This document shows positions 1 through 62,991 of a stretch of 64,000 bases of DNA, in pieces. Position 1 is the stretch's first letter; every line of letters starts with the position of its first letter. Origin of the DNA: a virus (taxonomy: Duplodnaviria > Caudoviricetes); the IMG/VR virus record IMGVR_UViG_3300024331_000231, positions 1 through 64,000 of that record; one strand, 5' to 3'. Below the pieces are notes generated by a model. That model worked only from the letters and a program-made list of their open reading frames with translations, did no database searches and had not been told where the DNA came from. A program made the position numbers and the translations under genes.

Positions 1-94
1 TAATAGCAAGTTAGGAAAGATTGCGAAATAAAAAAGCCCTCCGGTAGATACCTAGGGCTTGCTTTTAACCTTATAGCGCAAAGCCTAGTTAGAA
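1..94. repeat. 94-bp perfect inverted repeat, copy 1 (copy 2 at 62898-62991); may extend beyond the window start
   Basis: The reverse complement of 1-94 is identical to 62898-62991 (ttctaactagg...cttgctatta); the match breaks at 95/62897. It contains the hairpin aagccct-N-agggctt plus a T-tract. Confidence 0.95.
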
Positions 95-112
95 GCTTTG
101 GCTACTGTATCA

Positions 113-185
113 TTAGTAAAGTTAGTCTTTTTAGAGAAATAAGTTTACACAAGTTAGTTTTTTTAGTTATTCTAGTGAAATAAGC
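113..185 (+). promoter_or_regulatory. Two runs of TTAGT-like direct repeats at 9-bp period, probable repressor operator upstream of the RAMP-like operon
   Basis: TTAGT(113)-aaag-TTAGT(122)-cttt-TTAGA(131)-gaaa-TAAGT(140); TTAGT(154)-tttt-TTAGT(163)-tatt-CTAGT(172)-gaaa-TAAGC(181). It abuts a -7-like TATCTTGT at 186-193. Confidence 0.6.
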
Positions 186-209
186 TATCTTGTTCGAAAA
201 ACAGCACAT

Positions 210-809
210 ATGGCCAAAACATCAGTGTCCGTAGAAGTCGTTGAATTCTCCATCCAACAAGTCATCATCCCCATTAAAGGCATCTCCCCTCTCATTGTTC
301 ACGCCTGGTCGGAAAAATCCAAGAAAATGATCGCCGACAAACAGGCCGGGAAAGCCAAGAACAAAAAGCACGAAATCCGTAACCCTAAGGAAGAATATGA
401 AGCGGCCAAACATATTGCCGTCGCCGGCTGGGAAGGATACCCCGCTGCTGGCTTCAAAGCTGCGATGATCCGGGGAGCCAAAATGATCGGGATGGTCATG
501 AAAGACACCCAGACGGCCTTTTTTATCCACGCCGATTGCGAACAGACGCAACTAGTCAAGATCATCGGCAAAAGCAAAATGCGCGATGACATGGTCCGGG
601 TCGGGATCGGTGCTTCCGATATCCGGTATCGGCCGGAGTATACCGAGTGGTCTGCCAAATTGACCGTCGAATTCAACGCCGGCATCCTTTCGATCGATCA
701 GATCCACCAACTGGTCAAGGCGGCCGGCTACGGCTGCGGAATCGGGGAAATGCGCCCAGAAAAAGGAAAATTCAATTATGGACGTTTTAAATTAGCCAAT
801 GAAAAATAA
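210..809 (+). CDS. RAMP/Cas7-like RNA-binding protein (Vipr-like)
   Basis: RAMP-style motifs in the expected order: N-terminal strand IKGISPLIVH, GYPAAGFKAAMIRG (cf. Cas7/Csm3 IPGSSLKGxxR), DIRYRPEY..W, and C-terminal glycine-rich loop AGYGCGIGEMRPEKG..YGRF. Adjacent to the pentamer array. Confidence 0.75.
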   Translation: MAKTSVSVEVVEFSIQQVIIPIKGISPLIVHAWSEKSKKMIADKQAGKAKNKKHEIRNPKEEYEAAKHIAVAGWEGYPAAGFKAAMIRGAKMIGMVMKDTQTAFFIHADCEQTQLVKIIGKSKMRDDMVRVGIGASDIRYRPEYTEWSAKLTVEFNAGILSIDQIHQLVKAAGYGCGIGEMRPEKGKFNYGRFKLANEK

Positions 810-1377
810 CCTTCAGCTAGCAAAAAATGCCAAATACGAATGGCGCCCGGAATTTAAAACCAGTCTGGCCAAATCCGATATCAAAGTTGCCATTGCCGAA
901 TTAAGAGCACTCGAAGACACGTATGGCGAAATTACCCCATCGCTTTTGGTTGAGCATTCAAAACGGAAAAAATCAATTTTTCACAATTTTTTTGAATGGG
1001 ACAACGAGCGAGCCGCCGACTCTTGGCGGTTCATGCAAGCTCGATATTTATTGGGATCCATCCAGGTCAAAGTGGTTAAAAAGGGCAATCCCGTTCGAAT
1101 GCCGGCCTATCAAATCACCAAGAGAAGCGCCCCGAAAGCCGGCAATACTACCTACACCCGATTCGATACGCTCACGCAAGACAATAAGATGTTCATTCTT
1201 CAGCAGTGTTTAGCAGACCTGGCAAGAGTCAAAAACAAACTTATGGCCAACGATTTTGAGGACGCTATACCATATATTGATAAAGCCATCATAGCACTTC
1301 AAAAAGAATCGGAGATAATTCCCATAGAAAGCTCACTATCACCAAATAAGGTTAAAATAATGTCTACAGGCAAGTAG
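799..1377 (+). CDS. Conserved phage protein partnering the RAMP-like gene (FEWD-x-AA-x-QAR family)
   Basis: Motif ITPSLLVEHS..SIFHNFFEWDNERAADSWRFMQARYLLGSI. Overlaps the upstream gene by 11 nt; its stop codon abuts the array. Confidence 0.75.
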   Translation: MKNNLQLAKNAKYEWRPEFKTSLAKSDIKVAIAELRALEDTYGEITPSLLVEHSKRKKSIFHNFFEWDNERAADSWRFMQARYLLGSIQVKVVKKGNPVRMPAYQITKRSAPKAGNTTYTRFDTLTQDNKMFILQQCLADLARVKNKLMANDFEDAIPYIDKAIIALQKESEIIPIESSLSPNKVKIMSTGK

Positions 1378-1381
1378 ATTT

Positions 1382-2276
1382 GGCAGTTATGATTTGGCAT
1401 GGTCCGGATTGGCCCTCAAAGGCTAGGAATGCTAAGGTTTGGTAAGGCAGAAAAGGTACGGAATGGCATGGACAGGAAACCAAAAGTAGTATGAGACTCG
1501 GTTTGGCAGATAGGGCCCGGAGTGAATAGGACAGGCCATCAAAGGAACGCTAAGGAATGGTTCGGTTAGGAGAGGCAGCTGCGGATGGGTATAGACCGGT
1601 TAGGCTGGGAGTGCCTAGCACTGGAGTGGTGCGGTGCGGTGGGATTTGGCAGCTATGGATTGGATCGGGGGCGCCGGGTTTGGTGCTCAAAGTCGCGCTG
1701 CGGAGAGGCAGCCATGGATTGGTGTGAGTAGGAACGGCTTGGTATGCAAGGACTCGTTTCGGATGGGCAGTAAAGGACCCTAAAGGAACGGAGTGTTCAG
1801 GCTCGTAAAGTTTGGGTAAGGCAGTTTTGGACTGCAAAGGATGGGCGAGATCGGGTTTGGAAGTCTCGGGTAAGGTACGGCAGTAAGGGCAAGGTTTGGC
1901 GGGGTATTGAAAGGTCGGTTTTGATAAGGTGAGGCAGTTGTGGTGGAAAGTGGGAAGGAATGGCAAGGTCAGCTATGGTACGGTTCTCTTTGGCAGCAGG
2001 GGCTGCGTGTGGCCGATTTGGACTGGCAAGCAATGGAAAGGCACATTTAGTTTCGCATGGGTGTTCTGAGGTATGGCAGTTCAGGTAAGCGTTGGACTGG
2101 AAAGGTATGGATAGGTTCTCCGAGGAGCGGCAGTTATGGAACGGTGAGGAATCACTTGACCAGGAATGCTTAGGTATGGTATGGCAATGCAGGGATCGCT
2201 GAGGAGCGGCAGTAATGGCAAGGAAGTCATTGGTGAGGCATGTTTGGGACCGATGTGGTAGGGTATGTTGCGGCAG
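1382..2276 (+). repeat. Pentamer-phased GGH-NN array with 15 GGCAG delimiters; putative guide-RNA (vrRNA-like) array
   Basis: GGCAG at 1382, 1446, 1505, 1574, 1648, 1707, 1766, 1820, 1879, 1933, 1992, 2075, 2129, 2208, 2272. Spacings are 64, 59, 69, 74, 59, 59, 54, 59, 54, 59, 83, 54, 79, 64: all 5n+4 except 83, which is 19+64 via GGCCG at 2011. By hand count 99 of 151 internal pentamers start with GG. Confidence 0.92.
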
Positions 2277-2336
2277 GAGAAGAATTCCCTATCTTCGCTC
2301 CGGCTTTTAATAGGATATTGAATTTAAACACATCCG

Positions 2337-2360
2337 GGCCCCTGTTCTCAGGGGCCTTTT
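2337..2360 (+). terminator. Rho-independent terminator closing the RAMP-partner-array transcript
   Basis: GGCCCCTG-ttct-CAGGGGCC followed by TTTT. Confidence 0.75.
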
Positions 2361-2599
2361 GTCGCCCAAAGCTCCTTAAAGCGAATACCGGCCACCAAAC
2401 AATTCAAAAGCCCCAATATTGTGTTACAACAACCTCTTTGGTAATCGTTTAGATATAAGTGTCCAACCCTCAAAATAAAATGGAATAAGAAGATCAATAA
2501 TTGGAAACCTCCCCATGTTATGGCTATTTTACACCATATTGCCCAGGCTCTTTTCTTTTGTAGCTGTTCCGTAAATTGATCTAGTATATGCTCTTCCAT
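2348..2599 (-). CDS. Small membrane protein, hypothetical
   Basis: 83-aa ORF with two hydrophobic segments, convergent with the array. Confidence 0.55.
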   Translation of the reverse strand: MEEHILDQFTEQLQKKRAWAIWCKIAITWGGFQLLIFLFHFILRVGHLYLNDYQRGCCNTILGLLNCLVAGIRFKELWATKGP

Positions 2600-2694
2600 T
2601 CCGCAAAATTAAAAGACCCAGGTGGAAACCCGGGCCGCAACTTAGAATTTCTATGAAAAAAAATTCTCAAATGTACTGATTTGGACTAAAAAAA

Positions 2695-3294
2695 CTAATT
2701 TATCTTACAAGTAACGCAGGGCGTAATCCCCTCCGCTGACATAAAGAGTTGCTTTCCTGATATGAATAGCGTATCTCCGCTCCAACTGGCTTCATCCGCC
2801 CCGGCTCTTGACCACCCCGCCTTGTGCCTTGCGATCAAGGCATTTGTTGTATGGTTCCACAATGCAAAATGGATATAGAAAGGCTCGTTGGCTGCTACCC
2901 GAATATAATAATTGTAAGCGGCTTGTCCCCCCACCGAGTCTTTGAAACAAAACTTGCGGATGCCCTTCCGCTCGGCATAGGCCAGCAACGAGTCCTCAGG
3001 GCCATAATACCAGTTCGCGTCGACACCGTTTGCCGCTAAATTCGTTGGGGCGAGCAAGGATATATTCATTCCATAGACGATTGCTCTCCACAGCGTATCT
3101 GTATCTCTATAACTGGAGTCTGAAGCGTATAACCGAACCGGCTTCAAAAGCAATTGTTCCTTGCTATACACGTCCGCCGCCGGAAATATCATCCCCGATT
3201 CTTTTGGGTTACGGGATTGGTACCAAAAAAGGAAGACAATCGCGGATACTACTAGCAGCACAAAAAGCAGTGCAAGGGCTTTAAATGGGTTCAT
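2695..3294 (-). CDS. Hypothetical protein with N-terminal membrane anchor
   Basis: Start placed at MNPFKALALLFVLLVVSAIVFLFW within the 222-aa ORF. Confidence 0.6.
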   Translation of the reverse strand: MNPFKALALLFVLLVVSAIVFLFWYQSRNPKESGMIFPAADVYSKEQLLLKPVRLYASDSSYRDTDTLWRAIVYGMNISLLAPTNLAANGVDANWYYGPEDSLLAYAERKGIRKFCFKDSVGGQAAYNYYIRVAANEPFYIHFALWNHTTNALIARHKAGWSRAGADEASWSGDTLFISGKQLFMSAEGITPCVTCKIN

Positions 3295-3497
3295 TTCATT
3301 GACAATCAAATGGTTAATAATAAAAAGGAGAAGAAAAAATCCCCGCTCGAGACGGGGATGCACTAATCAAGTACCATAACCATTAAACCTGAGCACTAAA
3401 TTAGCTAACCAACATATTATCTCCAAATTTTATCTTAGTTATTTTAGTCAAATTAGTGATTTTCTTTCCAGTTTGATAATTATCAATTATTTGCGGT

Positions 3498-3818
3498 TTA
3501 CCCCCCCCCGATAATTTCATTCGTCGCGCCGACCGCAGCGTTAGTAGCCAATAGCCGCTTCAACAGAATCAGTTTGCTTTTCAAGACAATGAAGTCTTCA
3601 CTTTTGGCCTCCTGCGTTCGTTTTAAATCTTCCAACTTTTTCAATATTTTGTCTGACCGTTGCTGTGAGTGTATCGCTGTCGGGGCCAGCATTATTCCCA
3701 TCAATTCGGCATTCATTAACTCAGCAGTTTCTTTTCCCGGGATGGCGTCCAAACCCTTCACCAGCAGGTCAAAATCTTCGGCCGTAAGGCCTACGGAGAG
3801 TATGTCTGTAATATCCAT
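3498..3818 (-). CDS. Hypothetical protein
   Basis: 106-aa ORF in the leftward early operon. Confidence 0.6.
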   Translation of the reverse strand: MDITDILSVGLTAEDFDLLVKGLDAIPGKETAELMNAELMGIMLAPTAIHSQQRSDKILKKLEDLKRTQEAKSEDFIVLKSKLILLKRLLATNAAVGATNEIIGGG

Positions 3819-3824
3819 ATGTTG

Positions 3825-4331
3825 TTATCTGTTTTGAAATTGTAATTGTAGGTAACGGTCACACATTTTCTGGAACGCGCCTTCTTTACCCCATATATCT
3901 GTATCTTCCCACAGCCAAGTTTTTTGGTCACGCATTTCATCCAACCACTTTGCGAACGACTTTTCCCCTTCCGCTTGCTTTATCAATAGCTCATCTCGTT
4001 CGCGCATACAACTGTAAGCAAACTTCACGAAGGATAGACGCGTAGGATTTTCGACGTTGTGACAATGCTTCCAATACATATCGATGGCTCCCGCAGCATA
4101 GGCGTCCTGGTCTCTTTTTTCATGAGAGTAATTATCTTCTGCCTCCCTGAGCCAATGGGTTAAGTCTTCAGGTAACCTCTCCTCTTCTTTAGGCCTACTT
4201 GCCGTGATAGTCTGCCTTCCCTCCTTTGCTACTTCTATGTCGCTGGCGATCCTTTTTGCTAATTCAAACATCACCTCAATGACGTCTCCCATTTTTTTCT
4301 GCTGTTCGGCTGATATGGTTTGTTCTGACAT
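3825..4331 (-). CDS. Hypothetical protein
   Basis: 168-aa ORF downstream of the TTAGT operator at 4363-4377. Confidence 0.65.
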   Translation of the reverse strand: MSEQTISAEQQKKMGDVIEVMFELAKRIASDIEVAKEGRQTITASRPKEEERLPEDLTHWLREAEDNYSHEKRDQDAYAAGAIDMYWKHCHNVENPTRLSFVKFAYSCMRERDELLIKQAEGEKSFAKWLDEMRDQKTWLWEDTDIWGKEGAFQKMCDRYLQLQFQNR

Positions 4332-4409
4332 GAATCCAAGGTATAAAAACTTTGCGGATTTGTTAGTTATTTTAGTTATTATTTCCTATTTTCGTTCAAA
4401 TTCTGATTA

Positions 4410-4778
4410 GTGACCATAGATGAACTCATAGCCGCTATCCGGGTACTGGTGGATGACGGGGTACGTTTGCGCGATATAGAAGAGCAACTCAAAATGCCCC
4501 TCAACTCTCTTAGCGGAATGCTCAACAAAAAAAAAGATTTTCCGCCCAAATGGATACGGAAGCTAACCGCCTATGTTGAAGCAAAGCAAAAGGCCAAAAA
4601 CAGCGCACCAGAACCGCCAAAAGAGCCTGCAGTTGAAACGCTTCCTGCTCCCCCATCCCCGCCCGCGAAAAAAGCTATTCCTGCCAGCAAACAACCTATC
4701 GTCAAAACTCCTCCAGCGGGCATGACCAAAGCCCAAACCATTCGCTTCCACCGGGAAAACAATCAGACACTGCAATAA
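4410..4778 (+). CDS. HTH transcription regulator (Cro/CI-like N-terminus, Pro/Lys-rich tail)
   Basis: VRLRDIEEQLKMPLNSLSGMLNKKK fits an XRE-type HTH. GTG start; divergent from the 4331 operon across an operator. Confidence 0.6.
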   Translation: MTIDELIAAIRVLVDDGVRLRDIEEQLKMPLNSLSGMLNKKKDFPPKWIRKLTAYVEAKQKAKNSAPEPPKEPAVETLPAPPSPPAKKAIPASKQPIVKTPPAGMTKAQTIRFHRENNQTLQ

Positions 4779-4779
4779 G

Positions 4780-5046
4780 CTATAGGACTATATAATTGAT
4801 TAATCGCTTGGCCGGTACAGTTCCTTCAAAAGTGGCACTTTTAATAGCATCCAGAGGCACCAGAAAATTCACGACTAGTAGATTCCGTTCGCCCGGATAA
4901 AGCAGCTGGGCAATGTAGTGGATCCCCTTTCCGGTCACTTTAAGCAGTATCGCGTATTCCTCTTCCTTTCGGAGATATTTTTTGAGTTCTTCTTTGGTGG
5001 GCATTTTAGAATGTTCCGGCTTCAAAAAGATGTTTGCCATGTTCAT
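4780..5046 (-). CDS. Hypothetical protein
   Basis: 88-aa ORF in a compact leftward operon. Confidence 0.5.
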   Translation of the reverse strand: MNMANIFLKPEHSKMPTKEELKKYLRKEEEYAILLKVTGKGIHYIAQLLYPGERNLLVVNFLVPLDAIKSATFEGTVPAKRLINYIVL

Positions 5047-17928: not shown

Positions 17929-19515
17929 ATGCACAAAAAGACACTTTACGGATCAGAAGCCAGGGAAAAACTACTTTCTGGCATCAACAAGATCAGCAAC
18001 GCCGTCGCCGTCACGCTCGGCCCTCTCGGCCGAAATGTTTTCATCGCCCAGAGTTACGAAGCCAATTATGGCACTCACTCCTACCCTATCGAAGTCACCA
18101 AAGACGGCTACCGGGTCACCCAGCGGTTTGACTTGGAAGACTTCTTTGAGAAGGCCGGGGCGGTTATGGTTAAGGAATGCGCCCAAAAAAGCGTAGATCA
18201 GAGCGGCGACGGGACTACCACGACGGTTATTCTAATGCGACACATGGTCATGGAGGGTATGAAAGCGGTCGAAGCCGGGGCCAACCCCGTCGAATTGAAA
18301 CGGGAGATCGATGCGGCTATTAGCCGGGTCGTGGGACAACTTCGCAGCCGTTCGGTGCAAATCGGTCATGATATCGAAAAAATATACCAGATCGCGACCA
18401 TCTCTGCCAATAATGATCCAGAGATTGGGCGCCTGATTGCTGACGCTTTCAAAAAAATTGGATACGAAGGTATGATCGATATCGAAGCCGGTAAAAGCGT
18501 CACGACGGAAATAAAAATAGCTTCCGGTTATCGGTTTGAGCGCAGTTGGGAAAGCCCTTTCTTTATTACCAATAAAGAGAAGCAAACGGTCGAATTTGAA
18601 GATCCATTGATCCTTCTATACAACCGCGTCATTACTTCCAGCAAACAGATTCGCAGGGCTACCGAAATTGCGTTGAACTCCTCCAAACCGCTGCTTATTA
18701 TTTGTCCCGGCGCAGAGACCGAAGGTCTGGCTATGCTGGCGGGTAATGCCTTCAAAGGGAATATTAAGTGCTGCGTCGTAAAAGCACCTGCGATCGGTGA
18801 AGCTCAGCGCATCGAAATGGAAGATCTGGCCATCCTCACAGGAGCCACGTTCATGGGGGACAATAGGGGAGAAGACGTGAAAGAAATTCTGCCCAAACAA
18901 TTCGGAACAGCAAAAAAAGTGATCGTTACCAAGGATGACACTACGATCATCGAAGGCGAAGCCAACAAACAGGCCTTGGAAGATTTACTCGTGGAACTCA
19001 GAATCAACAAAGCCCAAGCCAAAAATGAGGAAGAAGCGGCGCCCATCGAAAAAAGGATAGCCAAACTCACAGGGGGGGTCGCCGTAATCCAGGTAGGAGC
19101 CGCTACCGAAACCGAGATGAAAGAAAAGATGGACCGCTTCGACGACTCCGTTCGGGCCGTCAAGTCTGCAATAGCCGAAGGCTATACGGTAGGAGGGGGG
19201 ACTGCGTTGCTTCGGATACGTTCGGGCAACAAGATCGTAGACTCTGCCATGGACAAACTGCTGCAGCAGATCTGTTGGAATGCTGGTCTGCGTCCCAAAA
19301 AATGGTGGCATTTCTGGAAATCCAAGCACGTCTTTGACCTGGTGAAGGAAGCTCGGGGAAATATCGGCTACAACGCCAAGACAGGTAGGATAGAGGACTT
19401 GATCGAGGCCGGCGTCATCGATCCCGTAAAAGTCCTCCGCTGCGCCCTTCAGAACGCTGCCAGCAGCGCCGGGATGGTGCTGACATCCGAATGCTTAATC
19501 GTAGATAGTTATTAA
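17929..19515 (+). CDS. groEL: Chaperonin GroEL (phage-encoded)
   Basis: VAVTLGPLGRNV, VTKDG, GDGTTT, VVKAP, IAKLTGGVAVIQVGAATETEMKEK, GVIDPVKV. Confidence 0.97.
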   Translation: MHKKTLYGSEAREKLLSGINKISNAVAVTLGPLGRNVFIAQSYEANYGTHSYPIEVTKDGYRVTQRFDLEDFFEKAGAVMVKECAQKSVDQSGDGTTTTVILMRHMVMEGMKAVEAGANPVELKREIDAAISRVVGQLRSRSVQIGHDIEKIYQIATISANNDPEIGRLIADAFKKIGYEGMIDIEAGKSVTTEIKIASGYRFERSWESPFFITNKEKQTVEFEDPLILLYNRVITSSKQIRRATEIALNSSKPLLIICPGAETEGLAMLAGNAFKGNIKCCVVKAPAIGEAQRIEMEDLAILTGATFMGDNRGEDVKEILPKQFGTAKKVIVTKDDTTIIEGEANKQALEDLLVELRINKAQAKNEEEAAPIEKRIAKLTGGVAVIQVGAATETEMKEKMDRFDDSVRAVKSAIAEGYTVGGGTALLRIRSGNKIVDSAMDKLLQQICWNAGLRPKKWWHFWKSKHVFDLVKEARGNIGYNAKTGRIEDLIEAGVIDPVKVLRCALQNAASSAGMVLTSECLIVDSY

Positions 19516-61239: not shown

Positions 61240-62712
61240 ATGGATCCATTGCAAGAGGAGATATTGATGGACGAGTTCCGCAAAGGCAGTCAATTGGCCT
61301 TTAAACGGGTATTCGATGAGCTTAATGAGCATTTGGTATGGTGGTGTAAATGGTCATTTAAACTTGAGATGGAGGAAGCGGAAGACGCGGTTTCCGAAGC
61401 CTGGGTGAAAGTGTATAAAAACAGGGGGGATTTAAAGAGCTATGAGCATGTGAAACGATTTGTGCATGTGGTTATCCGGAACCAATTAATCGATCGACAT
61501 CGAGCTGAGGTGACCAAAAGAAAGGCTATTGAGAATTACACCTTTCTGCATACCGAAGAAATGGAGTGGGAAGGAGCATCAATTTCAAAAAAGGACGAAC
61601 TATTGGACAACCTGCCTGAATTAATTCAGCGAGTAAAAGGGAGACGCGGACGGGCATTGCGGCTGTATTTCGTTGAACAGAAGGACACGGGGGAAATAGC
61701 TGCGTTAATGGGAATTACCAGGCAAAGTGCGCTTAACTTGAAAGCTCAGGGAATAGACCAAATTAGGCAATTTATCGAAAATAATGCGTCACTGCCTGAA
61801 ATTCGCAAGAGTACGAATTCGAGGGAAGAAGAGGAGGATTTGGAAAAGGCAGTTTTTGCAGCCAATTTGCCTAAATTCCTCAATCATGTGAATTCGAAAA
61901 CAAAGCGAGTTCTTTCGCTTTATTTTCTGGAAAGAAAAAAGACGCAGGAGGTAGCCGCTGAAATGGGAATACCTGCTCAGAGCGCATTGAATTTGAAAAG
62001 TCAAGGAGTAGCCACAATTAAGGCGATCATGGCCGCTAATAATTCGTCGTTTCCTGCTGATAGCGAGAATGAAGCAGAGCCGATTGTTGCCGTGCCTGAG
62101 CTCGCAACGGTATTGGTGGAAGAACCAAGGCCGGTTTTCGTAGTTTCGAATTGGCAACGTGTCACGCATTTAGAGGAATTGATGAAAGGGTTCAAGGCAG
62201 GAGAGCGGGACGCGTTCCGTTACGTCTATGATCTTTGCAATCGCCAGTGGTTCGGCTTCTGTTTGAGTTTGGAGTTGATCGAGCCAATCGAGGATGTATT
62301 AGCGGATCTATGGTATTTGATCTTTGTAAAAAGGGAACAATTCAAGGATTTTAGGCACGTGAGAAATTACGGTTACGTGTATTTGCGGCATTATTCGATT
62401 AATAGCGCAATTGCTTTGCGTAGAAAGGAGCGAGCACTCGCCAGTGTGGCCATTACAAGGGATTATCCAAAAGAATGGGACAGCAAATTGAATTACAACG
62501 CGATAGCCATACATATACTTGAATTGCTCAACCGTTCGAAGCGCGCAGCAGGCGCCAAAGTGTTACGACTGCAATTTTTTTATGACATGAGTGTAGAAGA
62601 TATTGCGGAGCGATTGGGTATTAGTGTGAAGGCTGCGTATAAGAACAGGTCCCACGCGTTGGAGCATTTGAAAGAGCAATTATCTGAACAAAAAAATTGG
62701 CTACTATGTTAA
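61240..62712 (+). CDS. Tandem ECF-type sigma factor (sigma2-sigma4-sigma4-sigma2-sigma4)
   Basis: AFKRVFD..EAEDAVSEAWVK..RNQLIDRHR; two near-paralogous HTHs (EIAALMGITRQSALNLK, EVAAEMGIPAQSALNLK); second AFRYVYD block; DIAERLGISVKAAYK. Confidence 0.75.
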   Translation: MDPLQEEILMDEFRKGSQLAFKRVFDELNEHLVWWCKWSFKLEMEEAEDAVSEAWVKVYKNRGDLKSYEHVKRFVHVVIRNQLIDRHRAEVTKRKAIENYTFLHTEEMEWEGASISKKDELLDNLPELIQRVKGRRGRALRLYFVEQKDTGEIAALMGITRQSALNLKAQGIDQIRQFIENNASLPEIRKSTNSREEEEDLEKAVFAANLPKFLNHVNSKTKRVLSLYFLERKKTQEVAAEMGIPAQSALNLKSQGVATIKAIMAANNSSFPADSENEAEPIVAVPELATVLVEEPRPVFVVSNWQRVTHLEELMKGFKAGERDAFRYVYDLCNRQWFGFCLSLELIEPIEDVLADLWYLIFVKREQFKDFRHVRNYGYVYLRHYSINSAIALRRKERALASVAITRDYPKEWDSKLNYNAIAIHILELLNRSKRAAGAKVLRLQFFYDMSVEDIAERLGISVKAAYKNRSHALEHLKEQLSEQKNWLLC

Positions 62713-62903
62713 CTCCGATTCGCGGTCATTTACAAGAGGGTGGGTCATTGAAGGAGGATTTTATCCTTCAAAATATGATCTTGCTCGAAGGTTATGGGAA
62801 GTTGATCACGTTGGCGCAAGAAAAAGGCTATGAAGACGTTGCCGTGTTGATTGATGCAATATTATCGGCAGCCCGTGAAGCGGCAGAACGGAATCTTTTC
62901 TAA
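62706..62903 (+). CDS. Hypothetical protein
   Basis: 65-aa ORF overlapping the sigma stop; its own stop lies inside the inverted repeat. Confidence 0.5.
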   Translation: MLTPIRGHLQEGGSLKEDFILQNMILLEGYGKLITLAQEKGYEDVAVLIDAILSAAREAAERNLF

Positions 62904-62991
62904 CTAGGCTTTGCGCTATAAGGTTAAAAGCAAGCCCTAGGTATCTACCGGAGGGCTTTTTTATTTCGCAATCTTTCCTAACTTGCTATTA
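62898..62991. repeat. 94-bp inverted repeat, copy 2; contains a terminator and an outward -7-like TAACTTGC
   Basis: Exact reverse complement of 1-94. Confidence 0.95.

What the first reader, a model, noticed from the sequence alone, without database searches (positions are those of the whole stretch)
210..809. Stand-alone minimal Cas7-like protein in a phage
Seen: the motifs GISPLIVH, YPAAGFKAAMIRG and the terminal G-rich loop GYGCGIGEMRPEKG..YGRF follow RAMP motif order in only 199 aa. Inference: this is an RNA-binding filament subunit with no nuclease partner in the locus, so the output may be steric (transcriptional repression or blocking) rather than cleavage.
Basis: partly seen in the sequence, partly recalled or inferred. 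Interest (0 to 1): 0.75.

Follow-up and report, generated by a model that had tools for sequence, protein, structure and literature searches.

The report
Phage VIPR guide-RNA silencing system
The 199-aa gene is a Vipr protein, the minimal Cas7-like subunit of the recently described phage VIPR RNA-guided DNA-silencing systems, and it sits in a complete locus with a partner gene and 15 pentamer-coded guide RNAs, so it is a real and well-preserved example of a kind first reported in 2026.

Summary

The gene heads an operon-like unit: vipr, an overlapping partner gene (799-1377), then an 895-nt array (1382-2276) of 15 guides, then a terminator hairpin. Each guide is GGCA plus 10-15 GG-H-NN pentamers. 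Thirteen of 14 delimiter spacings are 5n-1, the "staggered array" form noted in the VIPR preprint.

Every homologue locus with enough flanking DNA carries such an array beside vipr, from Bacteroidota-linked phage contigs (48-88% identity) to Gordonia and Mycobacterium phages (36-39%).

The scan had already flagged this same stretch as "VIPR-like".

Local peculiarities are Met in place of the guanine-stacking Trp, 36% A at the pyrimidine position, and no structured vrRNA tails. I found no self-targets. One guide matches a conserved serine-recombinase motif at 20 of 22 positions, in frame; this is suggestive but unproven.

The parts
144..173 (+). Weak sigma-70-like promoter match upstream of vipr, lying within 9-bp TTAGTTATT-type repeats
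   Evidence: The consensus scan gives 9 of 12 matches. Tandem Repeats Finder reports a 9-bp repeat at 154-176. Function is inferred only, and the likely Bacteroidota host uses different promoter rules.
210..809 (+). vipr: a 199-aa minimal RAMP (Cas7-like) protein
799..1377 (+). vap-like partner gene, 192 aa, overlapping the end of vipr by 11 nt
   Evidence: ORF confirmed. Hits phrog_15946 at E 8e-11. Orthologues sit between vipr and the array in all related loci, and one is present as gp20 in Gordonia phage ODay. It shows no similarity to SUSP1 Vap1, and its fold is uninformative.
1382..2276 (+). Staggered vrRNA array of 15 guides, each GGCA plus 10-15 pentamers of form G-G-H-N-N, ending in a last GGCAG at 2272-2276
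   Evidence: Parsed and tested statistically. Pentamer position 1 is G in 86% of units and position 2 in 63%. Position 3 is A 36%, T 42%, C 19%, G 2%. Positions 4-5 carry about 1.9 bits of entropy each. All three + frames contain 8-17 stop codons. There is no Rfam family and no hammerhead.
1820..1878 (+). Guide g1820, the only guide with a candidate natural target
   Evidence: Under the 1-nt-skip rule it matches 20 of 22 positions, in frame, on the motif KWDRFSRNT of large serine recombinases. One hit lies in a 44-kb provirus and 60 of 80 listed metagenome hits are of this kind. Significance is uncertain.
2336..2362 (+). Terminator-like hairpin (9-bp GC stem) followed by UUUUG, closing the unit
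   Evidence: Folds at -19.7 kcal/mol, z -2.95 against shuffles. Relatives end their arrays with an analogous hairpin plus T-run. The simple consensus scan did not flag it because it has only 4 T.

Best explanation
Window 144-2362 is a complete VIPR (Viral Interference Programmable Repeat) locus of a 75.9-kb tailed phage, probably one infecting Bacteroidota. The finding's ORF encodes Vipr, a single-RRM RAMP protein. By homology with the solved SUSP1 complex, one Vipr protomer binds each 5-nt repeat of a guide RNA. It hides the GG-H bases and presents the two variable bases. The filament then reads double-stranded DNA two bases on, one base skipped. It forms an R-loop/triplex that blocks transcription without cutting.

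Here vipr, a partner gene and 15 guides appear to be made as one transcript. The guides abut each other with a 1-nt register slip at an invariant GGCAG, with no structured tails. The likely role is silencing genes of competing mobile elements in the infected cell.

Shown here: the fold, homology to Vipr, conservation of RNA-contact residues, the array grammar, the gene-array linkage across the family, purifying selection, and the absence of self-targets. Inferred from the literature: filament formation, DNA targeting, the 1-nt-skip rule, and repression as the output. Unknown: how guides are separated at GGCAG, what the partner protein does, and what the targets are.
For: - **Homology to solved Vipr.** The sequence alone hits PDB 36pp_D 'SUSP1 Vipr protein' at E 6e-5, and a 75-sequence profile hits it at E 8e-14.
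- **Contact residues.** The residues that contact GGY in SUSP1 (H17, R138, C173, D177, R179; bioRxiv 10.64898/2026.04.26.720927) align to H31, R141, C176, E180 and R182.
- **Array grammar.** Grammar and statistics are given. The 5n-1 spacing matches the 'staggered arrays ... 1 nt overlapping positions' of Fig. S18 of 10.64898/2026.04.26.720920.
- **Linkage in close relatives.** All 10 IMG/VR loci with downstream DNA show vipr-vap-array. So do a Bacteroidota MAG contig and a Mariniphaga contig, and the 88%-identical L031.
- **Linkage in distant relatives.** Gordonia phage ODay and Mycobacterium phage Donkeykong carry the same GGCAG-staggered arrays next to the gene.
- **Guide turnover.** Guide content is completely replaced between phages with 88%-identical Vipr, while the grammar is kept.
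- **Selection.** dN/dS for vipr is about 0.03.
- **No self-targeting.** No guide matches its own genome above the shuffled-guide null, as the authors also report for their systems.
- **Phage context.** Portal, large terminase, GroEL and virion proteins are present, and the record is rated 100% complete.
Against: - Transcription and processing of the array are therefore unshown.
- The array is looser than the published consensus. Only 100 of 166 pentamers start with GG, and 36% have A where SUSP1 Vipr sterically excludes purines.
- The Trp that stacks on the second G in SUSP1 is Met in this whole clade.
- The partner protein is unrelated in sequence to SUSP1 Vap1.
- No statistically secure natural target was found.
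- Pairwise identity to SUSP1 Vipr is low, alignable only over residues 129-189 at 30%. Mechanistic transfer therefore rests on profile and structure.
Confidence: 0.85

Rival explanations
1. It is a VIPR-type system whose output is destruction rather than steric block. The clade-specific partner protein (799-1377) would be an effector, such as a nuclease or recruiter, acting on DNA marked by the Vipr filament, as proposed for VIPR types III-V.
For: The partner gene is as tightly linked as the array. It is unrelated to the DNA-binding Vap1 of SUSP1. It has no assignable fold, so an enzymatic role cannot be excluded. The VIPR preprint reports vap genes that encode nucleases or helicases in some types.
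Against: There is no nuclease, helicase or any other Pfam, NCBIfam or PADLOC domain. The model is small and largely helical, with a winged-helix-like weak top hit only. No conserved Asp, Glu or His cluster typical of nucleases stands out among the invariant columns.
Confidence: 0.12
2. The locus is a decaying or idle relic. The array has drifted (40% of pentamers lack GG and many have a purine at position 3) and no longer yields functional guides.
For: GG conformity is lower than in relatives: position 2 is G in 63% of units versus 68-81%, and position 3 is A in 36% versus 8-15%. There is one irregular unit at 1992-2074. No secure target was found.
Against: The nearest relative with a long contig (L031, 88% Vipr identity) has an independent 13-guide array with the same composition: position 2 G 0.62, position 3 A 0.37. 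It shares no guides with the window, so this is a maintained sub-clade grammar rather than drift. The 5n-1 register is kept in 13 of 14 intervals. vipr is under strong purifying selection. Functional SUSP1 vrRNAs also contain degenerate units.
Confidence: 0.08
3. The filament acts mainly on RNA, blocking or sequestering transcripts, rather than on DNA.
For: The fold is closest to RNA-targeting type III Cas7 (Csm3). SUSP1 VIPR can pair with ssRNA in vitro.
Against: For SUSP1, ssRNA targets gave mostly incomplete filaments, and the DNA non-target strand is needed for the stabilising triplex. Silencing worked on either DNA strand. The basic helix-1 and bundle surfaces that clamp the non-target strand have Lys/Arg-rich counterparts here.
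Confidence: 0.05

Closest known systems
VIPR type II system of Escherichia phage SUSP1 (Vipr, PDB 36pp; vap1; vrRNA1-4), bioRxiv 10.64898/2026.04.26.720920 and .720927
   Same: It has a homologous Vipr protein of about 200 aa: profile E 8e-14, with conserved His, thumb Arg, and G-loop Cys, acidic residue and Arg. The gene order vipr, partner gene, downstream guide array is the same (L019). Guides are 5-nt repeats with two variable bases. It is phage-borne, with no cas genes and no CRISPR array.
   Different: Only the C-terminal third aligns pairwise, at 30% identity. The G-loop has Met where SUSP1 has the G2-stacking Trp. The partner protein is unrelated to Vap1. SUSP1 has four separate vrRNAs of about 100 nt, each with a structured 3' tail or pseudoknot. 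Here 15 tail-less guides abut, separated only by GGCAG with a 1-nt register slip. Position 3 is H (36% A) rather than Y.
'Staggered vrRNA arrays' (Fig. S18 of 10.64898/2026.04.26.720920)
   Same: [quoted passage not shown] That is the 5n-1 spacing seen here.
   Different: The figure and its example locus are not available as text. I therefore cannot say whether the GGCAG delimiter, this Vipr clade or this partner gene is what the authors show, nor which of their seven types this belongs to.
Unannotated homologous loci in cultured actinophages (Gordonia phage ODay gp19-gp20; Mycobacterium phage Donkeykong gp49 and relatives)
   Same: Vipr identity is 36-39% over the full length. The same GGCAG-delimited staggered pentamer arrays lie directly beside the gene. 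ODay gp20 carries the same partner-protein core motif.
   Different: Their arrays are much cleaner (GGC-NN or GGY-NN) and shorter, at 3-6 guides. The array lies between vipr and the partner gene (ODay) or upstream of vipr (Donkeykong). Their G-loop keeps Trp.
Cas7 backbone subunits of type III CRISPR-Cas (Csm3/Cmr4)
   Different: Identity is 8-15%. There is no CRISPR array, Cas10, Cas5/6 or small subunit in the locus. The repeat period is 5 nt rather than 6. The guide is internally repetitive, and the target is dsDNA read with a gap.

Membership tests
VIPR system (Vipr + vrRNA) | Protein homologous to experimentally characterised Vipr | tested here: met
   phmmer gives E 6e-5 and the family profile E 8e-14 to PDB 36pp_D, SUSP1 Vipr. 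tblastn finds the SUSP1 gene itself (H53).
VIPR system (Vipr + vrRNA) | Minimal single-RRM RAMP fold with thumb and glycine-rich loop | tested here: met
VIPR system (Vipr + vrRNA) | RNA-contact residues of SUSP1 Vipr (H17, R138, C173, D177, W178, R179) | tested here: inconclusive
   Five of six are conserved or conservatively replaced: H31, R141, C176, E180 and R182. W178 is Met181 in all 120 close relatives.
VIPR system (Vipr + vrRNA) | Adjacent tandem GGY/NN (YNNGG) pentamers, at least 4 units, with hypervariable NN | tested here: met
   There are 15 guides of 10-15 units. Positions 4-5 carry about 1.9 bits each, and position 3 is almost never G (2%). It is relaxed to GGH here; the preprint lists NNNGG variants.
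VIPR system (Vipr + vrRNA) | Gene-array linkage conserved among homologues | tested here: met
   Every homologue locus with enough flanking DNA has an array beside the gene, at 88% to 36% identity.
VIPR system (Vipr + vrRNA) | Accessory vap gene in the operon | tested here: inconclusive
   A conserved partner gene is present. It is not similar to Vap1, and sequences of vap2-6 were not available for comparison.
VIPR system (Vipr + vrRNA) | vrRNAs expressed, processed and bound by Vipr | not testable with these tools
No RNA data are held for this phage.
VIPR system (Vipr + vrRNA) | Guides match natural targets by the 1-nt-skip rule (>=80% NN) and do not self-target | tested here: inconclusive
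   No self-target was found. One guide matches serine-recombinase genes at 20/22 (91%), in frame. Four other guides gave nothing or background in exact-seed scans, and the other nine were not scanned outside this genome and the fetched loci.
CRISPR-Cas type III Cas7 (Csm3/Cmr4) | RAMP fold | tested here: met
CRISPR-Cas type III Cas7 (Csm3/Cmr4) | Encoded with a CRISPR repeat-spacer array and other cas genes (Cas10, Cas5, small subunit) | tested here: not met
   There is no repeat-spacer array in 1-5000. Neither gene hits a Cas model in PADLOC, Pfam or NCBIfam. Neighbouring ORFs have no Pfam hits. It is therefore not a CRISPR-Cas member, only a RAMP relative.
PD-Lambda-6 (PADLOC candidate defence gene) | Significant match to the family model | tested here: inconclusive
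   E 0.001, 17 bits, residues 22-100 only. Only 2 of 75 family members reach E 0.01.

The most novel reading that the evidence does not exclude
This Bacteroidota-phage clade would be a mechanistically distinct VIPR variant in three ways. First, a Met-for-Trp G-loop tolerates purine A at repeat position 3, giving a GGH/NN code. Second, the guides lack any structured tail and are demarcated only by an invariant GGCAG with a 1-nt register slip. That signal is conserved from Bacteroidota phages to actinophages. It would imply a maturation or capping mechanism different from SUSP1, perhaps involving the clade-specific partner protein. Third, at least one guide (1820-1878) would be aimed, codon-in-register, at the conserved catalytic motif of large serine recombinases, so that the phage silences the integrase or excisionase of rival temperate elements.
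Probability: 0.3. Interest if true: 0.6.

Novelty: new member of a known kind. Interest (0 to 1): 0.4.

Why it matters
VIPR systems were reported only in 2026. They are proposed both as the viral ancestors of CRISPR RAMPs and as a compact, PAM-free programmable DNA-silencing tool.

This locus adds a complete, intact example from an uncultured 76-kb phage, with an unusually large array of 15 guides in one transcription unit. The clade differs from the two characterised systems at a base-contacting residue, in the repeat consensus, in array architecture and in its accessory protein.

It therefore offers natural test cases for three questions. How strict is the GGY rule? How are tail-less staggered guides matured? 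What do accessory proteins contribute?

The same architecture is present, unannotated or mis-annotated as a protein-coding gene, in cultured Gordonia and Mycobacterium phages. These are experimentally tractable.

Tried and rejected
- **Family libraries.** Pfam and NCBIfam gave nothing for Vipr or the partner protein.
- **Known RNA families.** Rfam found no hammerhead or other family in 1-2600.
- **Self and cross-targeting.** No guide matches its own genome above the null. No guide from this phage or from relatives matches the other fetched loci above the null.
- **Exact-seed target scans in IMG/VR (9-10 units).**
  - g1574 3' end: 0 hits. g2208: 0 hits. g2129: 0 hits.
  - g1574 5' end: 1 hit, extending to only 19/28 and out of frame.
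  - g1505: 2 related hits at 20/26.
  - g1820: 1 hit at 20/22.
  - The hit rate of about 0.6 per 18-base seed is what chance predicts for this database, so these alone prove nothing.
- **Follow-up on g1820.** The full 22-base pattern has 0 hits in metagenomes. No second window guide converges on provirus G001 or on 61 recombinase segments. The seed is absent from 401 sampled genomes of the phylum of the Segetibacter MAG and from the three MAGs carrying relatives. G001 has 35% GC against 48% for this phage.
- **Other.** The PD-Lambda-6 similarity proved weak. The VIPR type (I-VII) could not be assigned because the defining figures are not held as text.

Full report
**1. The observation**

The ORF 210-809 (+) is real, starts with ATG and encodes 199 aa containing the three quoted motifs. 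It belongs to a very large, mostly metagenomic and viral family:
- 676 hits in the word-indexed search, the best 120 at 74-100% identity;
- 3192 clusters at 50% identity in the exhaustive search;
- phrog_4652, annotated 'unknown function', at E 4e-29.

Pfam and NCBIfam have no model for it. Against relatives with 87-88% identical protein, synonymous sites are saturated while pN is 0.08-0.09, giving dN/dS of about 0.03. It is therefore a working gene.

**2. What the protein is**

A sequence search of PDB chains returned a single hit, 36pp_D 'SUSP1 Vipr protein' (E 6e-5). A profile of 75 diverse family members raises this to E 8e-14 over residues 65-196.

The name led to three 2026 preprints on VIPR systems. 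They report the following:
- Vipr is a minimal RAMP encoded mainly by phages.
- It polymerises one protomer per 5-nt repeat on vrRNAs made of alternating GGY and NN.
- The NN bases read dsDNA with one base skipped per unit.
- Binding forms an R-loop triplex that silences transcription.
- Natural targets are competing phages, satellites and prophages.

In a six-sequence alignment including SUSP1 Vipr, the SUSP1 residues that hold the GGY bases align as follows:

| SUSP1 residue | Window residue |
|---|---|
| H17 | H31 |
| R138 | R141 |
| C173 | C176 |
| D177 | E180 |
| R179 | R182 |
| W178 (stacks on the second G) | M181 |

The Met is present in all 120 close relatives. More distant members of the family mostly keep Trp.

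**3. The locus**

The gene is the first in a compact unit.
- **Partner gene.** A 192-aa ORF (799-1377) overlaps its end by 11 nt.
- **Array.** Five bases after that ORF's stop codon, an 895-nt G-rich, C-poor stretch begins. It parses into 15 guides. Each is the 4-nt unit GGCA followed by 10-15 pentamers.
- **Delimiter statistics.** GGCAG occurs 15 times where 1.08 are expected. Thirteen of 14 spacings equal 4 mod 5. The one exception, 83 nt at 1992-2074, is an irregular unit.
- **Pentamer composition.** Position 1 is G in 86% of units and position 2 in 63%. Position 3 is A 36%, T 42%, C 19%, G 2%. Positions 4-5 are near maximal entropy.
- **Periodicity.** GG recurs at lag 5 with frequency 0.43, against 0.148 +/- 0.03 in shuffles.
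- **Coding potential.** All three + frames are full of stop codons, and no Rfam family or ribozyme is present.
- **End of the unit.** It closes with a 9-bp GC hairpin plus UUUUG at 2336-2362.

The 5n-1 periodicity means that the last pentamer of one guide (GGCAG) shares its final G with the first unit of the next. This is how the VIPR preprint describes 'staggered vrRNA arrays'.

The record is a 75,922-bp IMG/VR virus rated 100% complete. It carries portal, large terminase, GroEL, virion proteins and a sigma factor.

**4. Linkage across relatives**

All ten IMG/VR loci that extend past the gene show vipr, partner gene, then a GGCAG-staggered array, usually ended by a hairpin terminator. The same holds for:
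- a Bacteroidota MAG contig at 76% identity and a Mariniphaga contig at 48%;
- the nearest relative with a long contig, L031 at 88%.

The family also occurs in cultured phages at 36-39% identity. In Gordonia phage ODay the array lies directly after the gene and before a homologue of the partner gene. In Mycobacterium phage Donkeykong a very clean six-guide array lies just upstream and is annotated as a protein-coding gene, gp48.

The GGCAG delimiter and the 1-nt slip are conserved throughout. By contrast, SUSP1 has four separate vrRNAs with structured tails, and its Vap1 is unrelated to the partner protein here.

The three MAG titles are the only host clue, and they point to Bacteroidota.

**5. 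Peculiarities of this sub-clade**

Relatives at 65-80% identity have T at position 3 in 64-79% of units and A in 8-17%. The window and L031 both have about 36-37% A and about 62% G at position 2. Their guide contents share nothing: the best NN overlap is at chance level. The looser GGH grammar is therefore maintained rather than a sign of decay. I found no protein difference between the sub-clades in helix-1 or the G-loop that would explain it.

**6. Targets**

I applied the published rule (NN, one wildcard, NN, and so on) with shuffled-guide nulls.
- No guide matches its own genome above the null.
- No cross-matches appear among the fetched related loci.
- Public collections can only be scanned for exact patterns, so I used 9-10-unit seeds from five guides. 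Hits came at about the rate expected by chance, and most did not extend.

The exception is guide 1820-1878.
- **Viral hit.** Its seed hit one viral contig. With the flanking units the match is 20 of 22. It lies in frame, with skipped bases on wobble positions, on the peptide KWDRFSRNT of a 520-aa large serine recombinase. The protein has Pfam Resolvase, Recombinase and Zn_ribbon_recom domains. The gene sits at the end of a 44-kb provirus.
- **Metagenome hits.** The same seed found 84 stretches in the metagenome collection. Of the 80 listed, 60 are this motif in recombinase homologues with diverse flanking sequence, and all match at 20/22. About ten independent unrelated hits represent the background.

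This parallels the published finding that SUSP1 VIPR silences a satellite's excision recombinase in codon register. I regard it as a lead, for these reasons:
- The 60 hits are homologous, so they amount to one event.
- The perfect 22-base pattern is absent from metagenomes.
- No other guide of this or related arrays converges on these genes.
- The provirus has 35% GC against 48% for the phage.
- The seed is absent from 401 sampled genomes of the candidate host phylum.

**7. The partner protein**

It is conserved in the clade, with core motif H..FEWD..A....R..QAR and 22 invariant columns in 12 sequences. It evolves faster than Vipr, with pN of 0.21-0.27. No library, solved structure or fold search assigns it a function.

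**8. Verdict**

The protein is a Vipr, and the locus is a complete VIPR system with a staggered array. Because VIPR was described in 2026 preprints, staggered arrays and NNNGG-type variants included, this is a new member of a known kind.

Remaining open points worth testing:
- the Met-for-Trp G-loop and the GGH code;
- the tail-less GGCAG demarcation shared with actinophages;
- the unassigned partner protein;
- the candidate recombinase target.

The scan's own earlier notes on this same genome had already called the stretch 'VIPR-like' and described the 5n+4 array rule. I reached the identification independently through the PDB hit, before reading those notes.

Noticed in passing
L018:2501-2887 (Mycobacterium phage Donkeykong NC_051648.1, 36870-37256): The annotated CDS gp48 ('hypothetical protein') coincides with a clean six-guide GGC-NN staggered array directly upstream of the Vipr homologue gp49. 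It is probably a mis-annotated noncoding vrRNA array, and the same is likely in the about 27 related mycobacteriophages.
   Followed up: partly
L017:3635-3777 (Gordonia phage ODay MW534375.1): A three-guide GGCAG-staggered array lies in the gap between gp19 (Vipr homologue, 39% identity) and gp20. gp20 carries the same FEWD...QA core as the window's partner protein. The locus sits inside the tail gene block, between the tail assembly chaperones and the tape measure gene.
   Followed up: partly
window 1-94 and 62898-62991: A perfect 94-bp inverted repeat (an exact reverse complement) brackets almost the whole window. It includes the hairpin just upstream of the VIPR operon.
   Followed up: partly
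window 154-176 and 4363-4380: 9-bp TTAGTTATT tandem repeats lie in the promoter region of vipr and again upstream of the ORF at 4410. They may form a shared operator for early genes.
   Followed up: no
window 210-806, residues 22-100: There is weak similarity to the PADLOC model PD-Lambda-6 (E 0.001) and to phrog_36733 (E 0.007). Both models are 131 positions long. Only 2 of 75 family members reach E 0.01, so a link between that experimentally selected defence gene and Vipr is an unverified lead.
   Followed up: partly
L028:3591-3628 and L029:560-597: Guide 1505-1573 matches two related viral contigs from one sample at 20 of 26 positions. The match is in frame with an open reading frame, with skipped bases on wobble positions. 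This is below the 80% threshold, and the extension beyond the seed is at chance level.
   Followed up: partly
window 17929-19515 and 61240-62712: The phage encodes its own GroEL-type chaperonin (phrog_5725, E 4e-126) and a 490-aa sigma-factor-like protein.
   Followed up: no
L035-L114 (metagenome contigs): A large family of serine recombinases shares the block LFTKWDRFSRNT.DAYQMI, with first and second codon positions invariant over 9 codons in at least 60 diverse homologues. A conserved block of this kind would make a good target for a codon-register (1-nt-skip) guide.
   Followed up: partly
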